From the IMG/VR virus record IMGVR_UViG_3300028800_000057: 64,000 nucleotides of DNA; one strand, written 5' to 3'. This document shows positions 11,821 through 35,349 of this stretch, one piece after another. Numbering within the stretch: the first letter of the stretch is position 1; each line of letters opens with the position of its first letter. Made by a program: the position numbers and the translations under genes. A model generated the notes under the pieces. It saw nothing but the letters and a program-made list of their open reading frames with translations, made no database searches and had not been told where the DNA came from. The DNA comes from a virus (taxonomy: Duplodnaviria; Heunggongvirae; Uroviricota; Caudoviricetes).

Positions 11821-11829
11821 CCAATCAAT

Positions 11830-11999: not shown

Positions 12000-12398
12000 A
12001 TGCTGGTTAGAGCCCAGCCCCCGGAGCCTAACCCTCTCGGTGTACTGGTCAGTGTGGTATACCGAATGGACTTTCTAGAGCTACCAAACGATCGTAAGCT
12101 TTTTGCTGAGCACCTCGTCACCTTCCTCAACGAGTGCTTCAAGACTGACCCTGAGGCTATCAAGTCCCTGTTCGCTCATCGAGTACCGGTGAACGAGGCT
12201 ATGGCAGACCACCCAACGGTCCAAGTGTCCCCAGGGGACCCTCCGACAATGAGCATCCTCGGTCTCCTCAATGGCTTCGTGGGTGTTATTCCGGGTACAG
12301 ACTCAATCGGGTATGTCTGTGGGAACTACGACGATGAGGACCACGACAAACTACTTGGCTTTAGCGTTCACAAGAAGGCAATAGAAGCCAATGGCTGA
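12000..12398 (+). CDS. hypothetical protein
   Basis: 132-aa ORF. The start is uncertain. Confidence 0.4.
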   Translation: MLVRAQPPEPNPLGVLVSVVYRMDFLELPNDRKLFAEHLVTFLNECFKTDPEAIKSLFAHRVPVNEAMADHPTVQVSPGDPPTMSILGLLNGFVGVIPGTDSIGYVCGNYDDEDHDKLLGFSVHKKAIEANG

Positions 12399-12870: not shown

Positions 12871-12874
12871 CTAT

Positions 12875-12947
12875 GCCCATGTAGCACAGTTGGTAGTGCG
12901 CATCCTTGGTAAGGATGAGGTCATCGGTTCGATTCCGATCCTGGGCT
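12875..12947 (+). tRNA. tRNA-Thr(GGT)
   Basis: GCACAGTTGGTAGTGC D-arm, anticodon arm CATCC-TTGGTAA-GGATG, T-arm ATCGGTTCGATTCCGAT, CCA follows. Confidence 0.7.
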
Positions 12948-13064
12948 CCACAATCCTTGTATTCCGAAAAACTTCATGCTAGGGTTGTCTCCTACTCAAC
13001 GGGCCATCGTTGAGTAGTGGTGGAGGGTAGCCGGGAACGGCCGCCCCTAGCGAAGCCCGATGCA

Positions 13065-13092
13065 AGTCGGGCTTTCGTCTTTCTATGCGGGT
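13065..13092 (+). terminator. rho-independent terminator-like hairpin plus T-run
   Basis: GCCCGA-TGCAAG-TCGGGC followed by TTTCGTCTTTCT. Confidence 0.4.
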
Positions 13093-13159
13093 AACTCCTC
13101 AATGGTGAGGTGCTTCGTTGCCAACGAAGACCCGGCGGGTTCGATCCCCGCTACCCGCT
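13087..13159 (+). tRNA. tRNA-Gly(GCC)
   Basis: Acceptor GCGGGTA/TACCCGC perfect, anticodon arm CTTCG-TTGCCAA-CGAAG, T-arm GCGGGTTCGATCCCCGC. Confidence 0.7.
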
Positions 13160-13187
13160 CTAAACCTCTTATGGTAGGTTCCAGAGT

Positions 13188-13823
13188 ATGACTCGCGAGC
13201 TGATCGCCTTCCAAGACGCCCTGATTGCCGATAGTGTTGCAACTCGCTTCGTCGAAGCGAGTATCAAGACTCACAAGACGGCAAGCGTCAGCAAGCCGTT
13301 GTATGGCCATGATTCGATGACCAATGCTTTCGTGGTTGACGACTACCCGTACGGCTACCGCCTTCGATGCAAGATTCGGTACTGGGTAGAGTTCAACCCA
13401 ACCAAGGGCTATCGGATGTTTAGTCAGACCACGAATCCCAAGATTACGGGAAAAGAGGTTTGGAACAAGCCAAAGGCTTCAACGTTTACTGAGTTGGCAG
13501 GTTGTCTCTACTTGGATTCGAGTGACAAGGTTCAGTTCGGAACCCTCGGGATATACTCAAGTGCTGAGCAGTGTCTTGAGTTCATGAAGGACTTCCCCAA
13601 GTTCGAGGGTACCAAGAGATTGGGTATTTGGGCCGTCAAGAAGCTAGAGTTCTGCTACAAGATGATGACGGGGAAGGCTCACTGGGTTGTCAATGAGGTG
13701 AAGCAAGAGACCAGTGACTCCGACAAAGGTCGGTATCGAGATGAGGCCAAGCAGTGGTCACAGCTTGCCAAGAAGCTTGGTCAGAACTATCCGGATTTCG
13801 TAGACGAGGAACTAGGCCTGTAG
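13188..13823 (+). CDS. hypothetical protein with VATRFVEA leader variant
   Basis: 211-aa ORF. Confidence 0.5.
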   Translation: MTRELIAFQDALIADSVATRFVEASIKTHKTASVSKPLYGHDSMTNAFVVDDYPYGYRLRCKIRYWVEFNPTKGYRMFSQTTNPKITGKEVWNKPKASTFTELAGCLYLDSSDKVQFGTLGIYSSAEQCLEFMKDFPKFEGTKRLGIWAVKKLEFCYKMMTGKAHWVVNEVKQETSDSDKGRYRDEAKQWSQLAKKLGQNYPDFVDEELGL

Positions 13824-13854
13824 CAGGGTATCGGGTTCCTCGTTTTAGTTACAT

Positions 13855-13927
13855 GTCGAGGTTCCCGAGTGGTAAGGGCGCGGTCTGCAAAACCGTAGTT
13901 TCGTCAGTTCGATCCTGACCCTCGACT
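13855..13927 (+). tRNA. tRNA-Cys(GCA)
   Basis: Acceptor GTCGAGG/CCTCGAC perfect, anticodon loop CTGCAAA, T-arm GTCAGTTCGATCCTGAC. Confidence 0.65.
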
Positions 13928-13931
13928 CTAT

Positions 13932-14004
13932 GCGGACATAGCTCAATTGGTAGAGTTTCTGCCTTCCAAGCAGATCGTTGAGGGTTCGAGTCCCTTTGTC
14001 CGCT
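13932..14004 (+). tRNA. tRNA-Gly(TCC)
   Basis: GCTCAATTGGTAGAG D-arm, anticodon arm TCTGC-CTTCCAA-GCAGA, T-arm GAGGGTTCGAGTCCCTT, CCA follows. Confidence 0.75.
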
Positions 14005-14008
14005 CCAG

Positions 14009-14034
14009 GGAGAATGCTTGCTCGGAAGTACATT
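14009..14034 (+). promoter_or_regulatory. conserved post-tRNA motif, copy F
   Basis: GGAGAATGCTTGCTCGGAAGTACATT after tRNA-Gly(TCC), upstream of ORF 14158. Confidence 0.4.
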
Positions 14035-14157
14035 TAGTTCAAACCTGAAATCCCCCCGCTACTTATGGGGGATCGCCTTATGGAGGCATCTTTCGGCTTC
14101 TCTTGTCTCCCTCAGTCTAATGAACTTATCCAGTGGGTAAGTGTGTTTGATGACCTA

Positions 14158-14982
14158 ATGACCCTTCGTGTTGCGGCTCGGTACGTTCGAGCACGAGCGA
14201 AGATATCACTTAGTACTGGGGAGGATGACGAGACCCAACGAAAGGGTAAGATCCCTCCCAGGTGGAAAGAGTGGTTGGACCTTACACAAGAAGGGGGTAA
14301 GCGTAAGGTTCCTAACCCAAGTGCAGATCCTCAGTCTCGTGAGAGAAACTCGGAGGTTTCCTTCAGTACAGCTCTAAAGAACCCTAGCTTTTATGGCAAG
14401 GCACTCAAGGAGTACTACAACTGGGTAGGGAAGCAGGACGATAAGGGTGGTACTTCACCAAAGAAGCCAACGCCTTCTGAAGAGTCCACTTCAGATGCTA
14501 AGCCCAAAGAAGAAGACTCAAAACCAAAGTCCAAGGGTGATGATTCGAAAGATACTGCTCCGTCCAATCCTTTAGAGTTGGACGACAAGCGACTAGACGC
14601 TATCATCGAGGAGAATAAAGAGCACTTTGACCAGATCACGAAAGAGATGACTGAGTCGGTTAAGGGGTTTAAGTCTAGTCACATGAAGAAGCGCTACCCC
14701 GGGGATCGGTACCCAAGCCTCTTCAAGAAGGCTTTTGATCGACTCACTCCTCAAGAGCAAGCACTCTGGGCTGGTGGGGATAAGCTAGGCAAGCACTTCC
14801 AAGACTACATGTCTAAGAAGGATGCTGAGGGTCAACGAGTAGGTCGAGGTGCTGTTGCTGGTTGGAGGATTGCAGGTGATTTCACTGAATCTGAATCAGC
14901 TCAGAACTTAATTGGTATGGTTGAAGCTTGGGGCATCAAGGGTTGCCAGCAGTTCAACCTGAACTTGACTAAAGTTACTTGA
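14158..14982 (+). CDS. hypothetical Lys/Asp-rich protein with RVAARY leader
   Basis: The ORF track starts at 14065. The leader consensus points to the internal start MTLRVAARYVRA. Confidence 0.45.
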   Translation: MTLRVAARYVRARAKISLSTGEDDETQRKGKIPPRWKEWLDLTQEGGKRKVPNPSADPQSRERNSEVSFSTALKNPSFYGKALKEYYNWVGKQDDKGGTSPKKPTPSEESTSDAKPKEEDSKPKSKGDDSKDTAPSNPLELDDKRLDAIIEENKEHFDQITKEMTESVKGFKSSHMKKRYPGDRYPSLFKKAFDRLTPQEQALWAGGDKLGKHFQDYMSKKDAEGQRVGRGAVAGWRIAGDFTESESAQNLIGMVEAWGIKGCQQFNLNLTKVT

Positions 14983-15177
14983 CTCCGCTCGTCTCATAGA
15001 TAATCATCCTATCAGATCGGATGTACATGAAGATGAAAGTGGTTCGAGTCTCGGCCACTGAGTTCGAATTGGAAGACGGTAGGGTATTTCCCCACGTCAC
15101 CCCACTCGAACCGGTTCCGACCCCCGAAGAGTTTCAAGTACATTACGACCTTTGGTCAGATCGGTTGAAGCGAAAGG

Positions 15178-15801
15178 ATGTCCCATGGACTTGTCTCGCT
15201 CAAAAAAGCGGCTGAAATCCTTGGTTGCGGAACCTCCACACTTCGAACTTGGGATAAGAACAAGAGCCTCGTAGCCGTTCGAACTCCTGGTGGTCAGCGC
15301 CGATACCGCACTGAAGACCTCGACCGCTTCCAGGGAATCATCAAGAAGACCTCCAAGAAGTCGGAGTCCGTGGCAGTCTACGCTCGTGTTTCTAGTCACG
15401 AGCAGAAGGCTAAAGGAGACCTCGACCGCCAGAAGGGAAGGCTTCTAGAGCATTGCGTCAAGCAGAGCTACTCGGTGACCCACGTCATGGAGGAGGTTGG
15501 ATCTGGGATGACGGACACTCGGCCGAAGATGCTACGGCTTCTTGAGCTGGCAACGAGGGGCGAGATTGGGCGAGTGGTTATCGAGCACAAAGATCGGTTA
15601 GCTCGGTTCAATTTCAACATATTCCAGAAGTTCTTCGAGAGTCACGGTGTACAGGTTGAATGGCTGGAAAACGTGCTTCCGAAGTCTTACGAGGCGGAAC
15701 TCGTTGAGGATATGGTCAGCCTTATGTCCAGCTTCTCAGCCAAAGTATATGGGAAACGCTCTGCTGAGAACCGCCGAAAGAAGAAGGCTGAAGCGGCATG
15801 A
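15178..15801 (+). CDS. tnpA: IS607-family TnpA (serine recombinase with N-terminal MerR-like HTH)
   Basis: An N-terminal HTH (AAEILGCGTSTLRTW) followed by a resolvase catalytic core (YARVSSHEQ...DRQ...R). Sits immediately upstream of, and overlapping, a TnpB gene. Confidence 0.7.
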   Translation: MSHGLVSLKKAAEILGCGTSTLRTWDKNKSLVAVRTPGGQRRYRTEDLDRFQGIIKKTSKKSESVAVYARVSSHEQKAKGDLDRQKGRLLEHCVKQSYSVTHVMEEVGSGMTDTRPKMLRLLELATRGEIGRVVIEHKDRLARFNFNIFQKFFESHGVQVEWLENVLPKSYEAELVEDMVSLMSSFSAKVYGKRSAENRRKKKAEAA

Positions 15802-17225
15802 AGAAGTGTAGGTTCTTCATGTTGCACTCCGAGTGCAATCCAGGGAAGGTTAAAGCTATCGAGGCCCTCCATGCTGAGTATGTGCTTTACGTTCGGATAT
15901 GCGTCCAGACGATGCTCTCCGCTCGCCGACTAAGCTTGCCCCGCTCGGAGAAGCAAGAGTTCTTTCCCCGAGCTGAGAACCTAACTTCACAGATTGAGAA
16001 GAACGCCCGTGATCATGCCATCCAGATCGTAAGTACCTGGGCCAAGGGGATCTATGCCAGGAAGCTCAAGACTTTCATCAGGTTATCCTTCAATGAAGGG
16101 ACTTTCGATGAGGACTTTCGGAAGCAACTCTGTACGGTCGGCAAGTATTTGGTTCACGATCCGAGTAAGACCGTGACCCAAGAGGCTATCAATCTGTATT
16201 GGGCTTGGCTCTCTGACCCAGAAGTAGTTGGAAACTTCCCAAGTGTGTCTAGTCGAATCCCAATGAGGATGTCTGAAAACACCTGCTCATTGGAAGATCC
16301 AGAAGAGGCTGTTCACGCTTATCTTTGGCTCAAGATCTCGACCTTAGTTTCTCGTAAGCTTGCCTGGCTCCCGCTGGTTGGAAACCCGTATGTCAAGAAG
16401 TCCTCTGATGTGGGTAAGGGGATTCATGCTAGAAAAGACCGAAAAGGCCGGTGGCGATTCGAAGCTGTTGACACCAAAGAATGGCTGATCTGTGAGGCGG
16501 AGCCAGACCTTCCAATGATCGGAGTAGATGTCGGGCTAAACGTAGTAGCGGCTACTTCGAGCGGACACACGTTTGGGGCAGACTTGAAACCCAAGTTTAA
16601 TCGGCTCTACAACAAGGTCAGGGCGGTTCGAGCGAACCGCCAAAGGCAGGGACTCAAAGAAAACAGCCCTAGACTCGACAGGCTTGAGTCCAAGCTCTCC
16701 GGCTTGACTAAGAGCATCACTGGACGGGTCTCCAATGAGCTTCTTCGAGCTTATCCAGAATCAGTCTTCGTCCTTGAGGACTTGGATCTTCGGGGTTGTC
16801 GTGGTCAAAAACGCTTTTGCTACAGAGCCTTAGCTCACGCTCTTGAGAGCAAAGCTCCGACCGATAAGGTGAATCCCGCTTATTCTAGTCAAACATGCCC
16901 TTCTTGTGGGCATGTCTCCAGGCTCAATCGGTCTGGAACCAGTTTCATCTGCCGCCAATGCGGCAGGATTTCACATGCTGATGTGGTAGGAGGGATCAAT
17001 CTGCTCAGACGTTCTGAGAGCAAACAGATTGGTCTCAATGATCACCCATCGGAAGTGAAGAGAATGCTTGTGAGGCTATACTGGTCTAGGAGGAATCCTA
17101 ACCAGGACTGTCCACAAGACTTCTTGAATAAATACGCGCCATTACCGTATGGCCGGAGGCTTACTACCAAGGGACGTTCTCGAAAGAGAAGCATTGGCAT
17201 AGCTTTTAATCAGGTAGTTGCTTGA
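15798..17225 (+). CDS. tnpB: TnpB (RuvC-like RNA-guided nuclease, IS605/IS607 family)
   Basis: RuvC-I (IGVDVGLN), RuvC-II (VFVLEDLD), zinc finger CPSCGH...CRQCG and RuvC-III (HADVVGGINL). Confidence 0.8.
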   Translation: MKKCRFFMLHSECNPGKVKAIEALHAEYVLYVRICVQTMLSARRLSLPRSEKQEFFPRAENLTSQIEKNARDHAIQIVSTWAKGIYARKLKTFIRLSFNEGTFDEDFRKQLCTVGKYLVHDPSKTVTQEAINLYWAWLSDPEVVGNFPSVSSRIPMRMSENTCSLEDPEEAVHAYLWLKISTLVSRKLAWLPLVGNPYVKKSSDVGKGIHARKDRKGRWRFEAVDTKEWLICEAEPDLPMIGVDVGLNVVAATSSGHTFGADLKPKFNRLYNKVRAVRANRQRQGLKENSPRLDRLESKLSGLTKSITGRVSNELLRAYPESVFVLEDLDLRGCRGQKRFCYRALAHALESKAPTDKVNPAYSSQTCPSCGHVSRLNRSGTSFICRQCGRISHADVVGGINLLRRSESKQIGLNDHPSEVKRMLVRLYWSRRNPNQDCPQDFLNKYAPLPYGRRLTTKGRSRKRSIGIAFNQVVA

Positions 17226-17379
17226 ACCCACGTAAGTTTAAGCAACTTCTTGAGTACGGTTGGACTGATCCAGGCTCAGGATTCTCAGGACAACCCTAAT
17301 ATTGTCAAGATTAAACTGGATGATATCAGTAGAATCATGTTCATCCCAGCTAACAAGTCTAGTAGTTTAGCTGATAGGG

Positions 17380-17964
17380 TTGCGACTCGTTGGTGTATTC
17401 AGCAGGGTGGCAATCGGTAAGGGTCCAATTAATCTCCCCGTAACTCCTGATATGCCCCTAAGTGAGCTTCAAGAGAAGTTGAAGGCTCATGTACGAGGCC
17501 CCGGCGCAGTCTGTCCAGTATGCCGTCAACTCGTGAGGATGGTTGAAAAAGAGCTGAGTGCCCCGATGGCGTACGTCCTCATTCTGATGTACCGTCACTT
17601 CCAGACGGCCTCTGACTGGCTCGACATGAACCAGTACATCTCAAACATGGTGGCGATTGGGTCCGAGGTGAAGGGTGGGGAGTGGTCGAAGATGAAGTAC
17701 TGGCAACTCATCGTCGAGCGCCCGCCGGAGAAGAAGTCAATCGTGAACCCCAAGCCTCCAGTCAAGACTCAGGGGATGTACAAGATGACAGAGCTTGGCG
17801 CAAGGTTCGTTCTCGGCAAGATCAAGATCCCTCGAAGTGTCTGGCTCTACAATGGCAAGGTCATCGAGGTACATAAGAAGTCCGTAAGCATTCAAGAATG
17901 CTTAGGAAAAGACTACAACTACGAAGCACTCATGGCTGGGAACCTAGGAAGCTTCGCAGTCTGA
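17380..17964 (+). CDS. hypothetical protein
   Basis: 194-aa ORF downstream of tnpB. Confidence 0.45.
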   Translation: MRLVGVFSRVAIGKGPINLPVTPDMPLSELQEKLKAHVRGPGAVCPVCRQLVRMVEKELSAPMAYVLILMYRHFQTASDWLDMNQYISNMVAIGSEVKGGEWSKMKYWQLIVERPPEKKSIVNPKPPVKTQGMYKMTELGARFVLGKIKIPRSVWLYNGKVIEVHKKSVSIQECLGKDYNYEALMAGNLGSFAV

Positions 17965-17969
17965 TTTAT

Positions 17970-18042
17970 GCCCCCATAGCTCAGTGGATAGAGCAAAGGT
18001 TTTCTAAACCTGAGGTCGAAAGTTCAAGTCTTTCTGGGGGTA
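17970..18042 (+). tRNA. tRNA-Arg(TCT)
   Basis: GCTCAGTGGATAGAGC D-arm, anticodon loop TTTCTAA, T-arm GAAAGTTCAAGTCTTTC, CCA follows. Confidence 0.7.
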
Positions 18043-18047
18043 CCAAT

Positions 18048-18120
18048 GTCCGCGCAGCTCGATTGGAGGAGCAACAGCTTGCGAAGCTGGAGGTTGGAGG
18101 TTCGACCCCTCTCGCGGACG
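18048..18120 (+). tRNA. tRNA-Arg(GCG)
   Basis: Acceptor GTCCGCG/CGCGGAC perfect, anticodon loop TTGCGAA, T-arm GGAGGTTCGACCCCTCT, CCA follows. Confidence 0.65.
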
Positions 18121-18125
18121 CCAAT

Positions 18126-18199
18126 GATCTCGTAGCATAACGGACTTGTGCAGCGGCCTCCGAAGCCGACGACTGTGGGTTCGAATCCCACCGGGATCA
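18126..18199 (+). tRNA. tRNA-Arg(CCG)
   Basis: Anticodon loop CTCCGAA, T-arm GTGGGTTCGAATCCCAC, CCA follows. The D-arm is weak. Confidence 0.5.
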
Positions 18200-18221
18200 C
18201 CAACTACGGTGTATTAGGGCC

Positions 18222-18557
18222 ATGGCTGTAATCACAATCAATGGCAAACGCATAGAGGTTGATGGCTCAGGTACTGTCTCAATCAACAATGGGGTTATCA
18301 AGGTTGATGGGGTGACCGTCGAGAATGGCCTTCATGGAGTCGTCGAAGTCAAGTGGGAAGGTCCTCTTGCTAACCTTCGATCTGATGCTTCAGTCACTTG
18401 TGGGGACGTCACTGGGAACGTGAGTGCGGGAGGTAGTGTCCATGCTGGTAACATTCAATCTACAGTGACCGCCGGTGGGAGTGTCCACGCTGATGACATC
18501 ATCGGGAACGTTAATGCTGGAGGAAGTGTCAACTGTAGAAGTCAAAGATCTCGTTAG
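18222..18557 (+). CDS. small repeat protein (three copies of G-N-V-x-A-G-G-S-V-H-A)
   Basis: 111-aa ORF with internal tandem repeats. Confidence 0.4.
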   Translation: MAVITINGKRIEVDGSGTVSINNGVIKVDGVTVENGLHGVVEVKWEGPLANLRSDASVTCGDVTGNVSAGGSVHAGNIQSTVTAGGSVHADDIIGNVNAGGSVNCRSQRSR

Positions 18558-18561
18558 TTAC

Positions 18562-18635
18562 ACCCCCATAGCTCAATTGGATAGAGCAGAGGTTTTCGAA
18601 GCCTAAGGTTGGAGATTCGAGTTCTCCTGGGGGTA
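18562..18635 (+). tRNA. tRNA-Arg(TCG)
   Basis: GCTCAATTGGATAGAGC D-arm, anticodon loop TTTCGAA, T-arm GGAGATTCGAGTTCTCC, CCA follows. Confidence 0.6.
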
Positions 18636-18640
18636 CCAAT

Positions 18641-18713
18641 GCTGATGTAGCTCAATCGGTAGAGCGGCGCTTTCATAAGGCGAAGGTTGCGGGTTCGAGT
18701 CCCGCTTTCAGCA
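18641..18713 (+). tRNA. tRNA-Met(CAT) (or Ile2)
   Basis: GCTCAATCGGTAGAGC D-arm, anticodon loop TTCATAA, T-arm GCGGGTTCGAGTCCCGC, CCA follows. Confidence 0.65.
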
Positions 18714-18743
18714 CCAAAGTTCTCACTGGGTGTAGTACCTAGG

Positions 18744-18923
18744 ATGGTGAGAATACTCCGAAGGTCGAAGGACGAAGTAGTGGTCATGGACAACGAAGAC
18801 ATAGTTGGTTCTGTAGTCAACCAAGTTGGATGTGTTCAGGTTGCAACTATTGACGGTTCTTTCGTGGTTGTCGACGATGTAGTCAGAGCGGCCAAGCTCC
18901 TCGATGAGCCTTGGCCTGAGTAA
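18744..18923 (+). CDS. small hypothetical protein
   Basis: The ORF track 18687..18923 begins inside a tRNA. The internal ATG at 18744 lies beyond the tRNA. Confidence 0.3.
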   Translation: MVRILRRSKDEVVVMDNEDIVGSVVNQVGCVQVATIDGSFVVVDDVVRAAKLLDEPWPE

Positions 18924-18930
18924 CTTTCAT

Positions 18931-19005
18931 GCCCCTGTAGCTCAATTGGTAGAGCGCTGGTCCTACAAACCAGAGGTTTTGTACGTTCAAGTCGTATCGG
19001 GGGTA
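18931..19005 (+). tRNA. tRNA-Val(TAC) with C32-C33 anticodon loop
   Basis: GCTCAATTGGTAGAGC D-arm, anticodon arm CTGGT-CCTACAA-ACCAG, T-loop TTCAAGT. Confidence 0.5.
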
Positions 19006-19010
19006 CTAAC

Positions 19011-19095
19011 GCACGAGTGGCGGAACTAGGCAGACGCTCCGGACTTAGAATCCGGCGGGGTAATTCCCATGGAGGTTCAATTCCTCTCTCGTGCA
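19011..19095 (+). tRNA. tRNA-Leu(TAG), type II
   Basis: Acceptor GCACGAG/CTCGTGC perfect, anticodon arm CCGGA-CTTAGAA-TCCGG, long variable arm, T-arm GGAGGTTCAATTCCTCT, CCA follows. Confidence 0.75.
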
Positions 19096-19354
19096 CCAAT
19101 CTCCAATGAAAGAAGGTTTTATGCTCAAGTTCAAGATACGATGGCTTAGTTCAAGACTCGTTATGGGTCGTGGCCTAAGCTGGGTGGTATAGCTGAATCC
19201 AATAGCTCAGTTCTGAGAGGCTCAGCTGCATTCATCGCCTCATTCAGGCAAATGCTAGCGATCTCTGCTCGGAATTGAGCCGGTTTTCTTGGGTTCACCA
19301 AAACTAAGGGCATAGAACTCTCACCTTCAATACGCCGTTTTGTCTTAGATCTTC

Positions 19355-25747: not shown

Positions 25748-26094
25748 GGGAATGATCGGTTTCGACGTTGGGTGAAAGGATCTCTTGCGTGTAAGCGGCT
25801 CTCGAACCGCTCATCAATCGAGAAACGTTAATTGCGAACGACAATGCAATCGCCGCTGCGGCCTAAGAAACCGCGCGACCAGTTCCTAGAGAGATAGTCT
25901 TGGTATCGAAGGAGCTGCCAATCACAAGGCTGGCTTACCTCACGGGCTCCCGGTGAGGTGGCGAGATAAACAGGGTGATAGGTCGTAGGCCGAATCCACG
26001 AACTCAGTCGAGGGGGATACTTCGACTACGCACGTGAATGAGAGAGATACCAGACAACTGACGGACCGGGGTTCGATTCCCCGCATTTCCACCA
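25748..26094 (+). ncRNA. ssrA: tmRNA (ssrA), tag peptide ANDNAIAAAA
   Basis: 5' GGGAATGATCGGTTTCGACG and 3' ACGGACCGGGGTTCGATTCCCCGCATTTCC-A-CCA. The acceptor halves are complementary. Internal reading frame GCG AAC GAC AAT GCA ATC GCC GCT GCG GCC TAA at 25834-25866. Confidence 0.8.
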
Positions 26095-27192: not shown

Positions 27193-27393
27193 CCGAGACC
27201 GCGCTAACGCTTGTCACCCCTTGGAAGTAACCCTTCAAGGTTACAGGCACCCTGCTTGGGTCTCTTTTTCAAAGACGTAGCCGCGCTTTAGTAGCTTGGG
27301 CAAAGTCTCGGACTTAACGGAAACTGTTTGGATTTGGGAGAGTGTCCAATCTCCGCATCCCAACGTCACTCACGTTCAGCGAGAGTATGTATC

Positions 27394-28854
27394 ATGCTAT
27401 TAAATCCGCAATTTACGTTTGAAAAAGTTCGTTTTGACCAGTCCACCGACCTGCACTTGGTGGTATCCGTCACTGCACCCAAGAGCGATTGGCAAACCCA
27501 TCGCCCTCCGTTGTGCATCATCCCAGCTGTTGATCGATCGGGTTCAATGCGCGGGGAGAAGATGGCCTACACGAAGAGGTCATTGCTCAAGCTGATTGAA
27601 CACCTAACGGCGGACGATACCTTTGGTTTGGTGAGCTTCGCTACCGACTCTACGGTTGACTTTCCTGCTGAGAAGATGACCCCGGATGCCAAGGCGCGAG
27701 CCAAGAAGGTTGTCGACGGGTACCGAGACTACGGCAACACCTTCCTCTCCGGAGGCCTCATGAAGGCACTAGAGATGGTGAGTGGACTAGACCTTGGTGA
27801 TACTACGATCACCCGTATCATCCTATTCACTGACGGGCAGCCAAACATTGGTGTGACCCAATTGGATGGGTTGGCTGGTTTAGTTGAAACTAGTCGTGGT
27901 CGCGCGAGTGTTTCAGCTTTTGGGTATGGCTCTGATGCTAACCAAGAGTTGTTGAACGCCATGGCTACAAAAGGTGCTGGCAACTATGCCTTCATCCAGG
28001 ACCCTGACTCGGCTCTTGCGGCTTTCGGCAAGGAACTTGGTGGTCTACTAAGCACCTATGCTCAGGACCTGATCATCGAGCTGACCCCGCACGAAGGTAA
28101 CCAAGTACTTGATATCGTTTCAGACTTTGACGTTGAGGAGATCATCACCGGTGAAGCTCGGATCAAGATCCCCCACATCCTGTCCGAGGAGACGATTGAC
28201 ATTGTCATCAAGGCCAAACTTGCTGCTCAGAAGCATCCAGGTCCACGTCAAGTCAATGCTGTTAGCGCCAAATTGTCTTGTCAGGTACTCGGGGCTGATG
28301 GAAAGATGCAAATTGAAACGGCTGAGGGTAACGCCAAGGTTCAGTTCGTCAAAGTTGGTGAGGAGCAGACTACTCCGACCAAGGAAGTCGATGAGTTGGT
28401 AGCACGGGCTCAGCTTCTTCAGGTGCAGAATCAAGCTGAGGCGGCCGCTCAACGTGGTGACTATGCCACTGCTGGACTCTGCTTCGATAGTATGAGTGCC
28501 AACTTCTCAGCACGTGGCCTAGGTGGAGTAGCTGCAGCTTCACATAGTCTTCGTTCAAAGTATACAGATCAGCACGTCTATGCCAAGAGCGCTGGTAGTC
28601 GTATGGGTTTGAATCGAGGGTTGAATAGGGCTCGGGCCGCTTCAGCCATGGGAGATAAGGATCTTGAGCTGCTCTGTAGCCTTGGGATTAGCGACACTAC
28701 AAGTGCTCAGGATGGTATGATGAGGAGCTTTCAAGAGCCCACCGTCGAGCCTGCAGTCATCAATAACCCGCTTGGTGCAATCGGTATCGAACCCCCAAAG
28801 GAAGAGCCAGTAGTTCGGTCCCCATTGACCAAACGACGTACTACTCAATGGTAA
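27394..28854 (+). CDS. von Willebrand factor A (vWA) domain protein
   Basis: MIDAS motif DRSGSM...T...TDGQPN. An ATG with the upstream RBS-like GAGAG is chosen. The ORF track starts at 27328. Confidence 0.6.
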   Translation: MLLNPQFTFEKVRFDQSTDLHLVVSVTAPKSDWQTHRPPLCIIPAVDRSGSMRGEKMAYTKRSLLKLIEHLTADDTFGLVSFATDSTVDFPAEKMTPDAKARAKKVVDGYRDYGNTFLSGGLMKALEMVSGLDLGDTTITRIILFTDGQPNIGVTQLDGLAGLVETSRGRASVSAFGYGSDANQELLNAMATKGAGNYAFIQDPDSALAAFGKELGGLLSTYAQDLIIELTPHEGNQVLDIVSDFDVEEIITGEARIKIPHILSEETIDIVIKAKLAAQKHPGPRQVNAVSAKLSCQVLGADGKMQIETAEGNAKVQFVKVGEEQTTPTKEVDELVARAQLLQVQNQAEAAAQRGDYATAGLCFDSMSANFSARGLGGVAAASHSLRSKYTDQHVYAKSAGSRMGLNRGLNRARAASAMGDKDLELLCSLGISDTTSAQDGMMRSFQEPTVEPAVINNPLGAIGIEPPKEEPVVRSPLTKRRTTQW

Positions 28855-28904: not shown

Positions 28905-29489
28905 TTGGTGTACTTCGTACCCATGATTAATGACGAAGTATACATATCAACCGACATTGAGTCGGATGGACCAATCCCGGGCCCTAATTCAATGCTCAGT
29001 CTTGGATCTGCTGCTTACTTACCAGATGGTAAGCGAGTTGGTACCTTCTCAGTCAACTTGGAGACTCTTCCGGGCGCGCAAGGCGACCCAGATACTATGA
29101 AGTAGTGGTCCGAGAGACCAAAGCAATGGGAGGAGTGTCGTAAGAACCAACAGCCACCTAAAGAGGCTCTCATCTCTTTAGGTGGCTGTTGGGTTGGTAA
29201 GATGCCAGGACGTCCTGTGTTCGTCGGGTATCCAGCTACATACGACTTTGCATTTGTTCATTGGTACTTGATCAAGTTCATCGGGTCTAGTGTGTTTAGC
29301 TTCTCGGCGCTTGACATGAAGTCATTTGCTATGGCGATCCTAGGGGCTAACTTCAGAGGTACCACTAAGAAAAATATGCCTAAAGAGTGGCTCACCGGTC
29401 TACCTAAGCACACGCATGTAGCGGTTGATGACGCCATTGAGCAAGGGGTTTTGTTCATTCGTATGCTTAAAGCTTCTAGGGTAAGCTAA
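28905..29489 (+). pseudogene. DEDDh (DnaQ-like) 3'-5' exonuclease interrupted by one in-frame TAG (29103-29105)
   Basis: Exo I ([10 protein letters not shown]) lies in ORF 28905..29105. Exo II (YDFAFV) and Exo III (HVAVDDA) lie in ORF 29202..29489. Both ORFs are in the same frame and the intervening 32 codons are open apart from the single TAG. Confidence 0.5.
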
Positions 29490-30052
29490 TGACTTGCGAG
29501 TGCTACAAGATACATGTTATTCAGAAAAACCCTCTAGGAGGAGTTTACGCTATACACAACACGATTAACCACCATTGCTATATTGGGAGTACCACTGATT
29601 TTAGAAAGAGATTCGACCTCCACCGTCATCTCTTGAGGGGTGGTAAGCACCACTCACCTCACCTTCAGGCAGCTTGGAATAAATATGGTGAGGATTCATT
29701 CGTATTCTTTAGGCTTGCATTCATAGATGACAAGCAACAGAGATTGTTAATAGAGCAGACCCTACTGGATACTCTGTCCCCGAAATACAACGTGTCCCGC
29801 TCGGCAGTGTCTAGTGAGGGCTGTACTCGAAGCCCTGAAACGAGAGCTAAGTTACGTAAAGCAATGCAGGATCCTAGTAGGTTGAAGTTTATTCGTGAGT
29901 TAGGGCTTAAGCCTAAATCGGAAGAACAACGATCTTTGATGGCAGAAGCTCAACGTGGGAGACATCACTCGGATGAGGCTCGTGCAAAGATGAGAGCCTC
30001 CAGTGCTATTCGTTGGGCTAGGGTTGAATCTAAGGGTAAACCTGCAAGGTAA
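29489..30052 (+). CDS. GIY-YIG homing endonuclease with NUMOD3-like C-terminal repeats
   Basis: GVYAIHN...YIGSTTDFRKRF...H...N GIY-YIG core and C-terminal S/RPE.RAK repeats. Confidence 0.7.
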   Translation: MTCECYKIHVIQKNPLGGVYAIHNTINHHCYIGSTTDFRKRFDLHRHLLRGGKHHSPHLQAAWNKYGEDSFVFFRLAFIDDKQQRLLIEQTLLDTLSPKYNVSRSAVSSEGCTRSPETRAKLRKAMQDPSRLKFIRELGLKPKSEEQRSLMAEAQRGRHHSDEARAKMRASSAIRWARVESKGKPAR

Positions 30053-30120: not shown

Positions 30121-31524
30121 ATGTCCTTCAAGTATCAGGCTCAAAAAGTCGGTGACGCCCATTACGTCCTTCCGCGTTGCGGAACGATGAAAGTGGAGGC
30201 GCATGCTTTTATATCAGAACCTCTCTTCGAGGCTTCTGAGGAGCAGCTTTGGAGGCAACTTGCCAGTGGAGCATCCTATGATGGAGTGACTGGTGCTTAT
30301 TTGATGCCTGATTGCCACCCTGGGTTTGGCATTCCGACTGGGTGTGTCCTAATCACGGACAAAACTCTCATCCAAGCTGGGTCAGGGTACGACATCTCTT
30401 GTGGGGTTCTGTACTTGAAAGTCAATCTCTCTGCTAATTCGGTCAGGAGCTGGGATAAGCGGGAGCGGTGGGTTCAGGAGGTCGAGAAGCGGATCTCTAC
30501 GGGGAAGAACTCTTTTGTCCCTAATATGCGTCCATCCTTCAATAGCCGTCAGGTGCAGGACATTCTTCGATACGGTGCCAAGGCTATTGGGGTGCCACGG
30601 GAGCTCTGCGAGCGGCATTACATACCGATTCCGGATGACACTAAGCTTACAAAGATTGATCGTGCCTACTCAAGGGTGCTTCCCCATATAGCTTCTGTTG
30701 GCGGGGGTAACCACTTTGTGGAGATGCAGGTCGACAGGGATACTGGAGAAGTATTCGTCATGATCCATTGCGGATCCCGCGGGTATGGGTGGCATACGGC
30801 AAACCATTACTTTTACGAAGGGGCTAAGCTACGGAACCTCCACCCAGATGCTCGAGAGGATTCCTGGCTTTACATTGACGAACCTCTTGGGCGAGAGTAC
30901 TGGGCATACCATAATTCGGCCGCTAACTTCGCTATCGCCAATAGGCATCTGATTGTACGTGGGATTCAAGAGTCAATTCAGGAGGTCTTCAACACAGACT
31001 CTGAAGTTTACTACGAGATCTCTCACAACTTGGTCCAAGAGGAAACCCTGGTACTTCCGGATGGTACTACGAAGAAGGGGTTCGTTCACCGGAAGGGTGC
31101 AACCCGAGCATTCCCAGCTGGTCACCCGGAACTGATCGGGACCCGCTGGGAGAAGACCGGCCACCCATGTCTAATACCGGGATCAATGATGGATGGAGCT
31201 GCTATCCTGTTTGCTGAACCAGGGGCCTACCAAACTGCTTGCTCAGTGAATCATGGATCTGGTAGAAAGATGGCTCGTGGTGAAGCCAAGAGGAAGTTGG
31301 AGCCCGAGCAGCTCCGGATTGACGATGAGATGAGGACCGTCAAGCGCGAGTTTGCTGGAGTGTCCATTGAGGGTATTGTTGGAAACCACCAGCACACGCC
31401 ATTGGATGAATGCGAGCACGTGTACAAGGACCTCGATGAGGTCTTGGATGTTCTTGAGGCAAACAAGATCGCGAAGGTTGCCCATCGATTGTATCCTGTA
31501 GCTAATATTAAGGGAAGCGACTGA
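30121..31524 (+). CDS. rtcB: RtcB RNA ligase (3'-phosphate/5'-OH)
   Basis: Conserved RtcB blocks, including HCGSRGYGWHTANHY and NHGSGR, with Cys/His metal ligands. 467 aa. Confidence 0.85.
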   Translation: MSFKYQAQKVGDAHYVLPRCGTMKVEAHAFISEPLFEASEEQLWRQLASGASYDGVTGAYLMPDCHPGFGIPTGCVLITDKTLIQAGSGYDISCGVLYLKVNLSANSVRSWDKRERWVQEVEKRISTGKNSFVPNMRPSFNSRQVQDILRYGAKAIGVPRELCERHYIPIPDDTKLTKIDRAYSRVLPHIASVGGGNHFVEMQVDRDTGEVFVMIHCGSRGYGWHTANHYFYEGAKLRNLHPDAREDSWLYIDEPLGREYWAYHNSAANFAIANRHLIVRGIQESIQEVFNTDSEVYYEISHNLVQEETLVLPDGTTKKGFVHRKGATRAFPAGHPELIGTRWEKTGHPCLIPGSMMDGAAILFAEPGAYQTACSVNHGSGRKMARGEAKRKLEPEQLRIDDEMRTVKREFAGVSIEGIVGNHQHTPLDECEHVYKDLDEVLDVLEANKIAKVAHRLYPVANIKGSD

Positions 31525-31525
31525 A

Positions 31526-32062
31526 ATGGACGAGAAGACCTTAGTCAAGAAGAGCAGGCACCTGAGTAAGGTTCTCCGTCATGAACCGGATTCAGTAGGT
31601 ATTACGCTCACTGAAGCCGGTTGGGCTCCAATATCGTCTATTCTTTCGGCCTTGAACCTCAAGCGAGAAGAACTCAACCAAGTCGTAGCAGAGAACAACA
31701 AGAATCGATTCGAGTTCTCCGAGAACGGGATGTTCATCCGAGCTCGTCAAGGGCACTCAGTAGAAGTGGATCTGGGGTACCCAGAGGCTACCCCACCGGA
31801 TACTCTCTACCATGGTACTTCACGTCAAACAGTATCGGTGGTTCTTCGAGATGGCATCAAGAAGATGCTTCGACACCATGTGCACATGTCACCGGATCTC
31901 GAGACAGCTAAGGTTGTGGCCTCGCGCCGGTCCGACCCAAAAATCCTTAAGGTTGATTCTAAGTCCATGTCAGCTGCAGGGATCAAGTTCTACCTAACAG
32001 GTAATGGTGTATGGTTGACTGATTATGTCGACCCAAAGTACGTCAGCGAGTACCACTCCTGA
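31526..32062 (+). CDS. kptA: Tpt1/KptA RNA 2'-phosphotransferase
   Basis: LSKVLRHEP...GWAPI...RARQGHS...HGTS pattern typical of KptA. 178 aa. Confidence 0.75.
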   Translation: MDEKTLVKKSRHLSKVLRHEPDSVGITLTEAGWAPISSILSALNLKREELNQVVAENNKNRFEFSENGMFIRARQGHSVEVDLGYPEATPPDTLYHGTSRQTVSVVLRDGIKKMLRHHVHMSPDLETAKVVASRRSDPKILKVDSKSMSAAGIKFYLTGNGVWLTDYVDPKYVSEYHS

Positions 32063-32624
32063 GATTTATGGTAAGAACTCGAAGCCACAAGGGGTGACCC
32101 CTTCTGTTGTACTGATCAATCCTAAGTTTCCGCATAATGTTGGAGCCGCCTTACGGGCGGCTTCTTGTTATGGAGCCAAGCAAGTTTGGTTCACAGGGGA
32201 TCGAGTGGAGCTTGGTCTCAAAGGGTCGAAGCGTCTTCCTCGTGAAGAGCGTATGAAGGGGTACAGGGACGTCGAGCTTCGACATTATGACCGGGTATTT
32301 GATCAGTTCGAGGATGTAGTACCGGTAGCGGTAGAGCTACGACCGAACTCCGAGAGCCTTCCTCAGTTTGATCACCCGAAGAACGCCATCTACTTATTTG
32401 GTCCTGAGGATGGCTCTATCCCGCAGATGTACCTGCAGCATTGCCATAGATTCGTGGTCATACCCACACGACATTGCGTGAATCTAGCGGCTGCTGTCTA
32501 CACTGTCCTCTATGATCGTCAATGCAAATTGTGTCCTGATATCACTATCCAAGACAGCCTAGCTGAACAACGATTCGACTTTCCGGAGAACGTTGAGTTA
32601 GCTACCTACCTCGGATTGGGTTGA
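32025..32624 (+). CDS. SpoU/TrmH-family RNA 2'-O-ribose methyltransferase
   Basis: SpoU motifs HNVGAALRAA, LFGPEDGSIP and IPTRHCVNLAAAVYTVLY. Confidence 0.6.
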   Translation: MSTQSTSASTTPEIYGKNSKPQGVTPSVVLINPKFPHNVGAALRAASCYGAKQVWFTGDRVELGLKGSKRLPREERMKGYRDVELRHYDRVFDQFEDVVPVAVELRPNSESLPQFDHPKNAIYLFGPEDGSIPQMYLQHCHRFVVIPTRHCVNLAAAVYTVLYDRQCKLCPDITIQDSLAEQRFDFPENVELATYLGLG

Positions 32625-33016
32625 CTATGAGCCTCGACATTGAAGTTTACACTTGGGATGAAGAGCGAATCAAAGATGAGGTAACGCTCCGTCTCGACCC
32701 TGAATGGGTCTTCAAGATTGGGTCTTCAGAAGACCAAACCTCTTGGGTAGCTTCAATTCTAAATCCGGATGGAGTAGAGGTTTGGGACGGCTCAGCGTTG
32801 ACAGCACAGCTCGTACTTCTTGATGCTCTAGGTTGGTTAGAGAGTCGACAGCACAAGGTAGCAGATACAAGCCCATGGGTTCGTCGGCGCGGGGATCTCA
32901 ACCCTCAACGAGTTCATGAGATTGCGTACTCGAAGTCGTTTGGGCCTCCAGACCCTCCACATCTGGACCTAAATGAGATTGATTCGGTTGTTAGGTCCGT
33001 TAGGAAAGGTAAATGA
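32621..33016 (+). CDS. hypothetical protein
   Basis: 131-aa ORF overlapping the upstream stop. Confidence 0.4.
   Translation: MTMSLDIEVYTWDEERIKDEVTLRLDPEWVFKIGSSEDQTSWVASILNPDGVEVWDGSALTAQLVLLDALGWLESRQHKVADTSPWVRRRGDLNPQRVHEIAYSKSFGPPDPPHLDLNEIDSVVRSVRKGK

Positions 33017-35349
<2,333 letters not shown>

What the first reader, a model, noticed from the sequence alone, without database searches (positions are those of the whole stretch)
30121..32624. RNA-repair cassette RtcB - Tpt1/KptA - SpoU-class 2'-O-methyltransferase next to a giant tRNA array
Three consecutive, partly overlapping genes encode an RtcB ligase, a Tpt1 2'-phosphotransferase and a SpoU/TrmH-family 2'-O-MTase. RtcB joins 2',3'-cyclic-phosphate and 5'-OH ends, the products of anticodon nucleases. 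Tpt1 removes a junction 2'-phosphate. The MTase is positioned like Hen1 in the bacterial Pnkp/Hen1 repair system, which methylates the junction to block re-cleavage. This cassette, the roughly 43 tRNAs, the tmRNA and a HAD phosphatase at 9590..10144 suggest a multi-layered counter-defence against host tRNA-cleaving immunity.
Basis: partly seen in the sequence, partly recalled or inferred. Interest (0 to 1): 0.65.

Follow-up and report, generated by a model that had tools for sequence, protein, structure and literature searches.

The report
Huge-phage RtcB, Tpt1 and SpoU methyltransferase genes
A very large uncultured phage carries three adjacent genes for an RNA ligase, an RNA 2'-phosphate remover and an RNA 2'-O-methyltransferase; the genes are real and probably service tRNA, but they sit together only in one narrow phage lineage, and the proposed Hen1-like "repair then methylate the junction" pathway is not supported.

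Summary
RtcB (30121-31524), Tpt1/KptA (31526-32062) and a SpoU-class 2'-O-methyltransferase (32025-32624) are intact, tightly packed, co-oriented genes with conserved catalytic residues. They lie about 11 kb downstream of a tRNA array (37-39 tRNAs, not about 43) and a tmRNA.

- RtcB leaves a clean junction with no 2'-phosphate, so it gives Tpt1 nothing to remove.
- The methyltransferase has the SPOUT fold, not the Hen1 fold, and no Pnkp partner was found.
- The trio is adjacent only in the window's own clade. The backbone in related huge phages is vWA - RtcB - [variable slot] - dsRBD-like protein - GroEL.
- That slot is empty in some relatives. In others it holds a tRNA-binding protein, a Nudix hydrolase, a 3'-5' exoribonuclease or a homing endonuclease.
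- Related phages carry the same three genes 13-31 kb apart.
- The methyltransferase belongs to a distinct, uncharacterised SpoU family with no conserved protein neighbour. In viral contigs it often lies inside tRNA arrays.

Best reading: a lineage-specific cluster of independently acting tRNA-maintenance genes. This is a variant of a theme already described for jumbo phages.

The parts
30121..31524 (+). RtcB 3'-phosphate/5'-OH RNA ligase (467 aa), archaeal/human-like type
   Evidence: Pfam PF01139 E 6.9e-84. PHROG 1075 'tRNA splicing ligase' E 1.7e-62. Best solved relative is P. horikoshii RtcB, E 2.6e-48. The motifs MPD64, GYD91ISC94G, GGGN197H198, H216, H302 and NH378GSGR align with the metal-binding residues and the GMP-histidine of PhoRtcB.
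31526..32062 (+). Tpt1/KptA NAD+-dependent RNA 2'-phosphotransferase (178 aa)
   Evidence: PF01885 E 1.1e-45. Best solved relative is 7kw8, E 1.7e-51; I identify this chain as Runella slithyformis Tpt1 from memory and from the residue numbering. The catalytic tetrad R18-H19-R61-R116 aligns with RslTpt1 R16-H17-R64-R119 (PMC6097658).
32025..32624 (+). SpoU/TrmH-class (SPOUT) RNA 2'-O-methyltransferase (199 aa); member of a distinct, uncharacterised family with an invariant RLPREERMKGY insert
32627..33016 (+). Conserved 129-aa protein (the ORF opens at TTG 32621) with an alpha-beta-beta-beta-alpha, dsRBD-like N-terminal domain; backbone partner of the GroEL gene
28905..29489 (+). Rv2179c-like 3'-5' exoribonuclease gene interrupted by one in-frame TAG (29103-29105)
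   Evidence: Reads as a single frame with TAG where every relative has Trp. Homologues match PF16473. In L008, L010 and L135 the intact gene lies directly upstream of rtcB.
29489..30052 (+). Free-standing GIY-YIG homing endonuclease inserted between the exonuclease gene and rtcB; not part of the RNA functions
   Evidence: PF01541 E 3.2e-10. PHROG homing-endonuclease families. Not detected at this position in L008, L010 or L135.
33083..34720 (+). Phage GroEL-type chaperonin; downstream boundary of the variable slot
   Evidence: PF00118 E 3.4e-61. Called as a 545-aa gene on identical contigs. Conserved downstream of RtcB in related phages.
27328..28854 (+). vWA-domain protein; upstream backbone gene
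   Evidence: PF00092 E 6.4e-16. Conserved upstream of RtcB in related phages.
9590..10144 (+). HAD_SAK_1 phosphatase of the 'Swiss Army Knife' RNA-repair type, embedded in the tRNA array
   Evidence: PF10307 E 2.3e-18. Lies between tRNA-Asp (9489-9565) and tRNA-Trp (10149-10221).
130..19098 (+). tRNA gene array: 37 by ARAGORN plus 2 more by Rfam
25748..26094 (+). tmRNA gene, tag ANDNAIAAAA
   Evidence: ARAGORN. Rfam RF00023, 111.8 bits.

Best explanation
The window comes from an uncultured huge phage of a bacterium, with a genome of at least 443 kb. The three genes form a lineage-specific juxtaposition of separately mobile tRNA/RNA-maintenance genes. They sit in a variable slot of a conserved backbone: vWA - (exoribonuclease) - RtcB - [slot] - dsRBD-like protein - GroEL.

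Proposed mechanism; every enzymatic role below is inferred, none was assayed:
- RtcB reseals tRNAs or other RNAs cut by metal-independent nucleases, which leave 2',3'-cyclic-phosphate and 5'-OH ends. The result is a clean junction.
- The SpoU enzyme methylates a ribose 2'-OH of intact, folded RNA, most likely tRNA of the phage or the host. It is not a repair-junction enzyme. This could mature or stabilise the phage's tRNAs, or protect a cleavage-prone nucleotide in advance.
- Tpt1 uses NAD+ to remove RNA 2'-phosphates that arise by a route other than RtcB. Its substrate is unknown.

In this lineage the genes are probably co-transcribed and partly translationally coupled. They need not act on the same molecule in sequence.
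For: Gene identities and intact active sites.

Tight junctions conserved within the clade.

Backbone and variable slot:
- RtcB is followed directly by the orf131-like gene and GroEL in L224, L230 and L246.
- The slot holds a 176-aa protein + Tpt1 + tRNA_bind in L136.
- It holds Nudix + tRNA_bind in L220.
- It holds an Rv2179c-like exoribonuclease in L222, L233 and L227.
- It holds a LAGLIDADG endonuclease in L251.

The same genes lie apart on single contigs:
- IMGVR_UViG_3300037484_000445: Tpt1 at about 273 kb, RtcB at about 304 kb, methyltransferase at about 334 kb.
- 3300037225_000673: methyltransferase about 20 kb from RtcB.
- 3300017528_000567 and 3300046461_000342: methyltransferase about 14 kb from RtcB.
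- 3300009685_000009 and 3300027985_000918: Tpt1 26 and 17 kb from RtcB.

Methyltransferase and tRNA genes in viral contigs:
- 19 of 71 distinct methyltransferase loci have a tRNA gene within 1 kb, and 20 are flanked by tRNA genes on both sides within 10 kb.
- 432 of 439 neighbouring tRNAs are on the same strand as the methyltransferase.
- In the comparison sets, 2 of 39 Tpt1 loci and 3 of 32 RtcB loci have a tRNA within 1 kb (Fisher p about 0.003 for the pooled comparison).

No protein neighbour of the methyltransferase is conserved.

Literature:
- RtcB gives a clean junction, and Hen1 works with Pnkp on the 3'-terminal ribose (PMC6097658).
- Jumbo and huge phages are already described as carrying RtcB, KptA and tRNA-modification genes against tRNA-cleaving defences (PMC7824862, PMC9503650, PMC7162821).
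Against: - Within the window clade the arrangement is stable. It holds down to 62% Tpt1 identity, and the Tpt1/methyltransferase overlap is kept. That fits selection for co-expression.
- Tpt1 lies near RtcB in three different configurations: directly downstream, downstream after a 176-aa gene (L136), and 3.6 kb upstream (L221). This hints at a real RtcB-Tpt1 link that 'independent action' does not explain.
- One bacterial chromosome (L164) also has RtcB immediately upstream of this methyltransferase.
- The putative RNA-repair cluster of Runella slithyformis pairs Tpt1 with a methyltransferase-HIT protein (PMC6097658). That precedent favours coupling of 2'-phosphate removal with methylation.
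- The methyltransferase substrate is not established, and rRNA is not excluded.
- In MAG contigs only 6 of 80 methyltransferase loci have a tRNA within 1 kb.
- The window's own copy lies about 13 kb from the nearest tRNA gene.
- Loci are not phylogenetically independent, so the p-values are rough.
Confidence: 0.55

Rival explanations
1. One reading: one integrated repair pathway. RtcB (or another ligase) seals the cleaved tRNA, Tpt1 removes a junction 2'-phosphate, and the SpoU enzyme then methylates the freed 2'-OH so the nuclease cannot cut again. This would be functionally like Pnkp/Hen1.
For: - Tight, partly overlapping genes conserved within the clade.
- The sequence 2'-PO4 to 2'-OH to 2'-OMe is chemically coherent.
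- The Runella slithyformis cluster pairs a ligase and HD-Pnk with Tpt1 and a methyltransferase-HIT protein (PMC6097658).
- RtcB lies next to this methyltransferase in one bacterial chromosome.
- Other RNA-repair-type genes lie nearby: HAD_SAK_1 and the exoribonuclease.
Against: - RtcB makes a clean junction without a 2'-PO4 (PMC6097658).
- No Trl1-type ligase, Pnk or cyclic phosphodiesterase was found among the ORFs scanned in the 64-kb window.
- The methyltransferase has the SPOUT fold, and its structural relatives act on internal nucleotides of folded tRNA or rRNA.
- The trio is not co-inherited outside one clade. In the nearest outgroup the methyltransferase position is taken by a tRNA-binding protein.
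- The closest solved Tpt1 relative, RslTpt1, does not remove terminal 2'- or 3'-phosphates (PMC6573784).
Confidence: 0.12
2. Adjacency without shared function. The slot downstream of RtcB is simply a hotspot for gene insertion. Tpt1 would act in NAD+/ADP-ribose conflicts, for example by ADP-ribosylating nucleic-acid 5'-phosphate ends. The methyltransferase would modify rRNA or another RNA, for reasons unrelated to tRNA cleavage.
For: - The slot also receives homing endonucleases and unrelated ORFs.
- A GIY-YIG homing endonuclease is inserted right beside rtcB in the window.
- In Bacillus phage G, Tpt1 sits in an NAD-synthesis cluster, and other phage Tpt1 genes have unrelated neighbours.
- Tpt1 can cap 5'-phosphate ends with ADP-ribose (title and abstract of PMC6182162, listed).
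- rRNA methyltransferases (RlmB, AviRb, RrmA) match the model as well as tRNA enzymes do.
Against: - The slot contents in relatives are enriched for tRNA/RNA-end functions: tRNA_bind in three lineages, an exoribonuclease, Nudix and Tpt1.
- The methyltransferase lacks the extra N-terminal RNA-binding domain that I recall in RlmB, AviRb and TSR-type rRNA enzymes (own knowledge). Those solved chains are longer, about 240-270 aa against 199 aa here.
- In viral contigs the methyltransferase is frequently embedded in tRNA arrays on the same strand.
Confidence: 0.25

Closest known systems
RNA-repair gene sets of jumbo and huge phages (RtcB or Rnl1/Rnl2 ligases, KptA, HAD 'Swiss Army Knife' phosphatases, 2H and Macro domains, alongside tRNA arrays), as surveyed in PMC7824862 and PMC9503650 and noted in PMC7162821
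   Same: Phage-encoded RtcB, KptA/Tpt1 and a HAD_SAK phosphatase together with a large tRNA set. The proposed role is to counter host nucleases that cut tRNA.
   Different: - Those surveys describe KptA as working with 2H phosphoesterases and ATP-grasp ligases, not with RtcB.
- They do not describe a SpoU-class methyltransferase in this context. A term search of PMC7824862 found 'SpoU' only as part of 'Spounavirinae'.
- The direct RtcB-Tpt1-SpoU order is confined to one uncultured clade.
Bacterial Pnkp/Hen1 RNA repair system
   Same: The concept of combining RNA sealing with ribose 2'-O-methylation, which blocks re-cleavage by transesterifying nucleases (PMC6097658).
   Different: - Hen1 methylates the 3'-terminal nucleoside before an ATP-dependent 3'-OH/5'-PO4 ligation by Pnkp (PMC6097658).
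- From my own knowledge, Hen1 is a Rossmann-fold, Mn2+-dependent enzyme.
- Here the methyltransferase is a SPOUT enzyme, the ligase is RtcB, no Pnkp was found, and the genes are not co-inherited.
Runella slithyformis putative four-gene RNA repair cluster: ATP-dependent ligase, HD-Pnk, Tpt1 and a methyltransferase-HIT protein (PMC6097658)
   Same: A ligase gene next to a two-gene Tpt1 + methyltransferase unit. RslTpt1 appears to be the closest solved relative of the window Tpt1 (7kw8, E 1.7e-51).
   Different: - The ligase class differs: ATP-dependent there, GTP-dependent RtcB here.
- There is no HD-Pnk here.
- The Runella methyltransferase is fused to a HIT domain; its fold class was not compared.
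- The function of the Runella cluster is itself unproven.
SPOUT tRNA 2'-O-methyltransferases TrmJ (position 32), TrmL (position 34) and TrmH (G18)
   Same: Same fold and the same three SpoU motifs. A single-domain protein of similar size. The weak best HMM hits are to the TrmJ/YjtD and TrmL models.
   Different: - All scores are far below the family cut-offs, for example 34 bits against 167 for TIGR00050.
- There is an invariant RLPREERMKGY insert.
- In the 1.84-billion-protein library only 2,228 proteins reach E <= 0.001 with the family profile, so the family is well separated from mainstream SpoU families.
- The target nucleotide is unknown.
Phage T4 Pnkp/Rnl1 repair of PrrC-cleaved tRNA-Lys
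   Same: A phage-encoded system that reverses anticodon-nuclease damage (background in PMC6097658 and PMC2610378).
   Different: The chemistry differs: heal-and-seal with an ATP-dependent ligase there, direct 3'-P/5'-OH sealing by RtcB here.

Membership tests
RtcB RNA ligase (PF01139) | Full-length match to the family profile above the curated threshold | tested here: met
   283 bits against a cut-off of 27; profile positions 1-426 of 426.
RtcB RNA ligase (PF01139) | Metal-binding Asp/Cys/His residues and the GMP-accepting histidine | tested here: met
   D64, D91, C94, N197, H198, H216, H302 and H378 align with the conserved motifs of P. horikoshii RtcB. The residue roles come from my own knowledge of the PhoRtcB structures.
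RtcB RNA ligase (PF01139) | GTP/Mn2+-dependent joining of 3'-P or 2',3'>P ends with 5'-OH ends | not testable with these tools
   Needs a biochemical assay.
Tpt1/KptA RNA 2'-phosphotransferase (PF01885) | Family profile match, and the catalytic Arg-His-Arg-Arg tetrad | tested here: met
   156 bits against a cut-off of 26. R18, H19, R61 and R116 are invariant in 24 homologues and align with RslTpt1 R16, H17, R64 and R119 (PMC6097658). The NCBIfam equivalog NF002014 scores 214.7, below its cut-off of 239.
Tpt1/KptA RNA 2'-phosphotransferase (PF01885) | A source of internal RNA 2'-PO4 (a fungal/plant-type ligase) in the same system | tested here: not met
   No such ligase, Pnk or cyclic phosphodiesterase was found among the ORFs scanned in the 64-kb window. 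The rest of the genome (at least 443 kb) was not available.
SpoU/TrmH (SPOUT) 2'-O-methyltransferases (PF00588) | Profile match, the three SpoU motifs, and the knotted alpha/beta fold | tested here: met
   [not shown]
TrmJ, TrmL or TrmH subfamily of tRNA methyltransferases | Score above the curated subfamily or equivalog cut-off | tested here: not met
   TIGR00050: 34 bits against 167. TIGR00185: 21 against 191. All 21 family members score below the cut-offs. Structure searches do not discriminate between the subfamilies.
Pnkp/Hen1 RNA repair-and-modification system | A Hen1-type (non-SPOUT) methyltransferase acting on the 3'-terminal ribose | tested here: not met
   The fold is SPOUT. Terminal-ribose activity cannot be tested here.
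Pnkp/Hen1 RNA repair-and-modification system | A linked Pnkp (kinase-phosphatase-ligase) partner gene | tested here: not met
   No Pnkp-like domains in the neighbours or in the other ORFs of the window that were scanned.
Conserved operon-like RNA repair cassette (generic criterion) | Co-inheritance of the component genes across diverged genomes | tested here: not met
   The genes are adjacent only in the window clade (Tpt1 at least 62% identical). They are absent from each other's neighbourhoods, or dispersed on the same contig, in other huge phages.

The most novel reading that the evidence does not exclude
The SpoU protein may represent an uncharacterised, horizontally mobile methyltransferase family that huge phages use to 2'-O-methylate a specific tRNA nucleotide, for example in the anticodon loop. 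Methylated phage and/or host tRNAs would then resist host anticodon nucleases that cut by transesterification, a kind of protective marking of tRNA. In the same reading, the recurrent placement of Tpt1 near RtcB reflects a still unknown bacterial or phage route that creates RNA 2'-phosphates during tRNA damage or repair. That would give Tpt1 a natural substrate outside fungal-type splicing.
Probability: 0.17. Interest if true: 0.72.

Novelty: new variant of a known kind. Interest (0 to 1): 0.4.

Why it matters
- Phage tRNA arrays and RNA ligases are now seen as counter-measures to bacterial immune systems that target tRNA (for example PMC10264068, PMC11464382, PMC11555353). A phage-encoded tRNA 2'-O-methyltransferase would add protective chemical modification to the known strategies of replacing and resealing tRNA.
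- The role of Tpt1 in organisms without a fungal-type ligase 'remains obscure' (PMC6573784). A phage lineage in which Tpt1 is tightly linked to RtcB offers a concrete setting in which to look for its substrate.
- As it stands, the finding is mostly a correct annotation with an over-interpreted mechanism, and the general theme is already published.

Tried and rejected
- Megablast of 29000-34000 against GenBank phages found no match. The only close phage hit is at protein level, in LR756511.1, where the methyltransferase reading frame is split into two pieces.
- PHROGs has no family for the methyltransferase or orf131. PADLOC has no hit for any of six proteins.
- The promoter and terminator scan found no more sites than shuffled sequence gives, so it says nothing about transcription units.
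- Clustering of neighbouring ORFs found no conserved protein neighbour for the methyltransferase, in either viral or MAG loci, and none for Tpt1 beyond clade-specific sets.
- I considered orf131 as a GroES-like or gp31-like co-chaperonin, or as an archease. Pfam gives no hit, and the model has a dsRBD-like alpha-beta-beta-beta-alpha fold instead. This is a hint of RNA binding, not proof.
- I considered archaeal-type tRNA splicing as the reason for RtcB. I set it aside because the phage carries bacterial-type features: a tmRNA, a GroEL-type chaperonin and a sigma-70 region 4 protein.
- I looked for a particular tRNA species next to the methyltransferase. No consistent isoacceptor emerged; Arg recurs, but tRNA-Arg genes are numerous in these arrays.
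Full report
**1. The observation**

The window has about 50% G+C and almost all genes lie on the + strand. Three ORFs occupy exactly the stated coordinates.
- 30121-31524: a full-length RtcB (PF01139, E 6.9e-84).
- 31526-32062: a Tpt1/KptA (PF01885, E 1.1e-45).
- 32025-32624: a SpoU_methylase protein (PF00588, 59.4 bits against a cut-off of 29.7).

The RtcB stop and the Tpt1 start are one base apart. Tpt1 and the methyltransferase overlap by 38 nt. The next gene's ATG lies 2 nt after the methyltransferase stop. The identical proteins occur in the same order on at least 16 independent metagenome contigs. An identical Tpt1 lies on a 443-kb contig, so the source is a huge phage.

ARAGORN finds 37 tRNAs (130-19098) and a tmRNA. 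Rfam adds two more tRNA-like hits. The total is about 39 rather than about 43, and the array ends 11 kb upstream of rtcB. The 'HAD phosphatase' at 9590-10144 matches PF10307, the HAD family of 'Swiss Army Knife' RNA-repair proteins.

**2. Are the enzymes intact?**

- RtcB aligns end to end with P. horikoshii RtcB (E 2.6e-48). It keeps D64, D91, C94, N197, H198, H216, H302 and H378 in the conserved active-site motifs. The residue roles come from my own knowledge.
- Tpt1 is most similar to chain 7kw8 (E 1.7e-51), which I identify as Runella slithyformis Tpt1. It keeps the tetrad R18-H19-R61-R116, which corresponds to the RslTpt1 residues shown to be essential (PMC6097658). These residues are invariant in 24 homologues.
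- The methyltransferase keeps the three SpoU motifs, invariant in 21 homologues. It also has an invariant RLPREERMKGY segment not typical of known subfamilies.
- No NCBIfam subfamily comes near its cut-off. The most consistent weak hit is to the TrmJ/YjtD model.

**3. Is the trio a conserved module?**

I centred searches on each gene in turn.

Methyltransferase-centred:
- The family is large: 4,378 relatives in the 90% clusters, 226 stretches in IMG/VR and 345 in GTDB species representatives.
- It is also well separated from mainstream SpoU families. Only 2,228 of 1.84 billion representatives reach E <= 0.001, and 194 reach 1e-30.
- Of the fetched viral loci with 10-kb flanks, only L008 and L010 (71-84% identity) have RtcB and Tpt1 adjacent.
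- Among the 75 other loci, one has a Tpt1 about 7 kb away (L017), one has a distant RtcB about 9 kb away (L059), and one has only a C-terminal RtcB remnant (L013).
- No protein neighbour is conserved.

Tpt1-centred:
- None of 41 viral loci outside the clade, and none of three cultured phages inspected, has RtcB or this methyltransferase within reach.

RtcB-centred:
- There are 32 distinct huge-phage loci with RtcB at 54-76% identity. The methyltransferase is present in none, and Tpt1 in one (L221, 3.6 kb upstream).

These loci reveal the backbone: vWA - RtcB - [variable slot of 0-4 kb] - orf131-like - GroEL. The slot contents vary:
- Empty in L224, L230 and L246.
- Tpt1 + SpoU methyltransferase in the window clade (also L135 and the 435-kb contig of P0134).
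- A 176-aa protein + Tpt1 + a tRNA_bind (PF01588) protein in L136.
- Nudix + tRNA_bind in L220.
- An Rv2179c-like 3'-5' exoribonuclease in L222, L233 and L227.
- A LAGLIDADG endonuclease in L251.

Several related contigs carry the same genes far apart. On IMGVR_UViG_3300037484_000445, Tpt1, RtcB and the methyltransferase lie at about 273, 304 and 334 kb. Five other contigs show separations of 13-26 kb (ranges).

The three genes therefore belong to the shared repertoire of this phage group. Their adjacency is a lineage-specific arrangement within an insertion-prone slot.

**4. What the methyltransferase associates with**

- In viral contigs, 19 of 71 distinct methyltransferase loci have a tRNA gene within 1 kb, and 41 of 71 have one within 10 kb.
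- Twenty loci are flanked by tRNA genes on both sides, and 432 of 439 neighbouring tRNAs are co-oriented with the methyltransferase.
- In the comparison sets, 2 of 39 Tpt1 loci and 3 of 32 RtcB loci have a tRNA within 1 kb (Fisher p about 0.003 pooled). The loci are not phylogenetically independent, so this value is rough.
- In MAGs the gene is scattered over many phyla. Some copies lie on Mb-size contigs beside ordinary cellular genes. One example is L164, with the order aroA, aroK, RtcB, methyltransferase, TopIB.
- The MAG copies again have no conserved neighbour, and a tRNA lies within 1 kb in only 6 of 80 loci.

The picture is of a mobile, stand-alone gene. Its only recurrent genomic partner is the phage tRNA array. 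That points to tRNA as the likely substrate, and to action on intact tRNA, as in its SPOUT relatives. No substrate was determined.

**5. Mechanistic assessment**

From the literature (PMC6097658):
- RtcB joins 2',3'-cyclic-phosphate and 5'-OH ends into a clean phosphodiester.
- A junction 2'-PO4 is the signature of fungal/plant-type ligases.
- Hen1 methylates the 3'-terminal ribose before Pnkp seals the break.

No Pnkp, Trl1-type ligase or cyclic phosphodiesterase was found among the ORFs scanned in the 64 kb. The region from 35 to 64 kb encodes DNA replication and recombination functions. The closest characterised Tpt1, RslTpt1, does not remove terminal 2'- or 3'-phosphates (PMC6573784). The linear pathway 'RtcB, then Tpt1, then methyltransferase on one junction' is therefore not supported.

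Some facts keep a functional link between RtcB and Tpt1, and perhaps between Tpt1 and a methyltransferase, alive as a minority reading:
- Tpt1 sits near RtcB in three different configurations.
- The Tpt1/methyltransferase overlap is conserved within the clade.
- The Runella cluster pairs Tpt1 with a methyltransferase-HIT protein beside a ligase (PMC6097658).

**6. Best explanation**

This is a tRNA/RNA-maintenance cluster of a huge phage. All enzymatic roles are inferred.
- RtcB reseals transesterification breaks.
- The SpoU enzyme 2'-O-methylates intact tRNA, either for maturation or as advance protection.
- Tpt1 removes RNA 2'-phosphates of unknown origin.

The genes are probably co-transcribed with an upstream Rv2179c-like exoribonuclease and a downstream dsRBD-like protein. 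In the window the exoribonuclease gene carries an in-frame TAG. My confidence in the overall picture is about 0.55. It is about 0.12 for the Hen1-like integrated pathway and about 0.25 for adjacency without shared function.

**7. Novelty**

RtcB, KptA, HAD_SAK phosphatases and large tRNA sets in jumbo and huge phages, and their reading as counter-defence, are already published (PMC7824862, PMC9503650, PMC7162821).

Three points appear to be undescribed in the sources searched:
- the direct RtcB-Tpt1-SpoU arrangement;
- the variable 'accessory slot' downstream of RtcB;
- this distinct SpoU family and its embedding in phage tRNA arrays. It has no PHROG family and no NCBIfam family above cut-off, and the paper searches found no literature on it.

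I rate it a new variant of a known kind, of moderate interest.

Noticed in passing
window 28905-29489 (TAG at 29103-29105): The Rv2179c-like 3'-5' exoribonuclease gene reads through in one frame except for a single amber codon. Every relative has Trp at that position (..DTMxWW..). The same TAG is present in three independent contigs. It is either a fixed nonsense mutation or a site that needs amber suppression. No suppressor tRNA was called in the window, but CUA-anticodon or 'Stop' tRNAs are called in several related huge-phage loci.
   Followed up: partly
window 29489-30052: A free-standing GIY-YIG homing endonuclease is inserted between the exonuclease gene and rtcB. It is not detected at this position in the close relatives L008, L010 and L135. 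L013 carries a GIY-YIG fragment abutting a C-terminal RtcB remnant, so homing endonucleases may repeatedly disrupt this locus.
   Followed up: partly
window 15178-17225: An IS607-like pair sits inside the tRNA array: a MerR-HTH serine recombinase (15178-15801) overlapping a TnpB/Cas12f-like protein (15798-17225).
   Followed up: no
[not shown]
   Followed up: partly
window 1742-1825 and 1981-2054: Two tRNA-like genes pass the Rfam gathering score (38.0 and 39.8 bits) but were not called by ARAGORN.
   Followed up: no
L136 8540-9016; L220 12688-13233; L013 12868-13290: Stand-alone tRNA_bind (PF01588, Trbp111/EMAP-like) proteins recur near RtcB or the methyltransferase in related huge phages. 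In L136 this protein occupies exactly the position that the SpoU methyltransferase has in the window.
   Followed up: partly
L164 4275-6594 (Pyrinomonadaceae MAG DATLMV010000039.1): A bacterial chromosomal context (aroA, aroK ... TopIB) has an RtcB (38% identical to the phage one) immediately upstream of a methyltransferase 59% identical to the phage enzyme. This is an independent RtcB-methyltransferase adjacency. Together with the many Acidobacteriota hits, it may hint at the host range or at gene exchange.
   Followed up: partly
L001 7980-8574 (LR756511.1, 595-kb uncultured phage): The methyltransferase homologue (62-72% identity) is split into two overlapping reading frames. This is an apparent frameshift in the only GenBank phage record with a close relative.
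   Followed up: no
L090 (Bacillus phage G, NC_023719.1 200-210 kb): The Tpt1/KptA gene of phage G is embedded among NAD+ salvage and synthesis genes (nicotinate phosphoribosyltransferase, NMN adenylyltransferase, NAD synthetase, Nudix). This fits its NAD+ dependence and differs from the RtcB context here.
   Followed up: no
window 4406-5125 (-) and 26192-26755 (+): Two HNH endonuclease genes lie within or beside the tRNA/tmRNA region. With the GIY-YIG gene and the IS607-like element, this part of the genome is rich in selfish elements.
   Followed up: no
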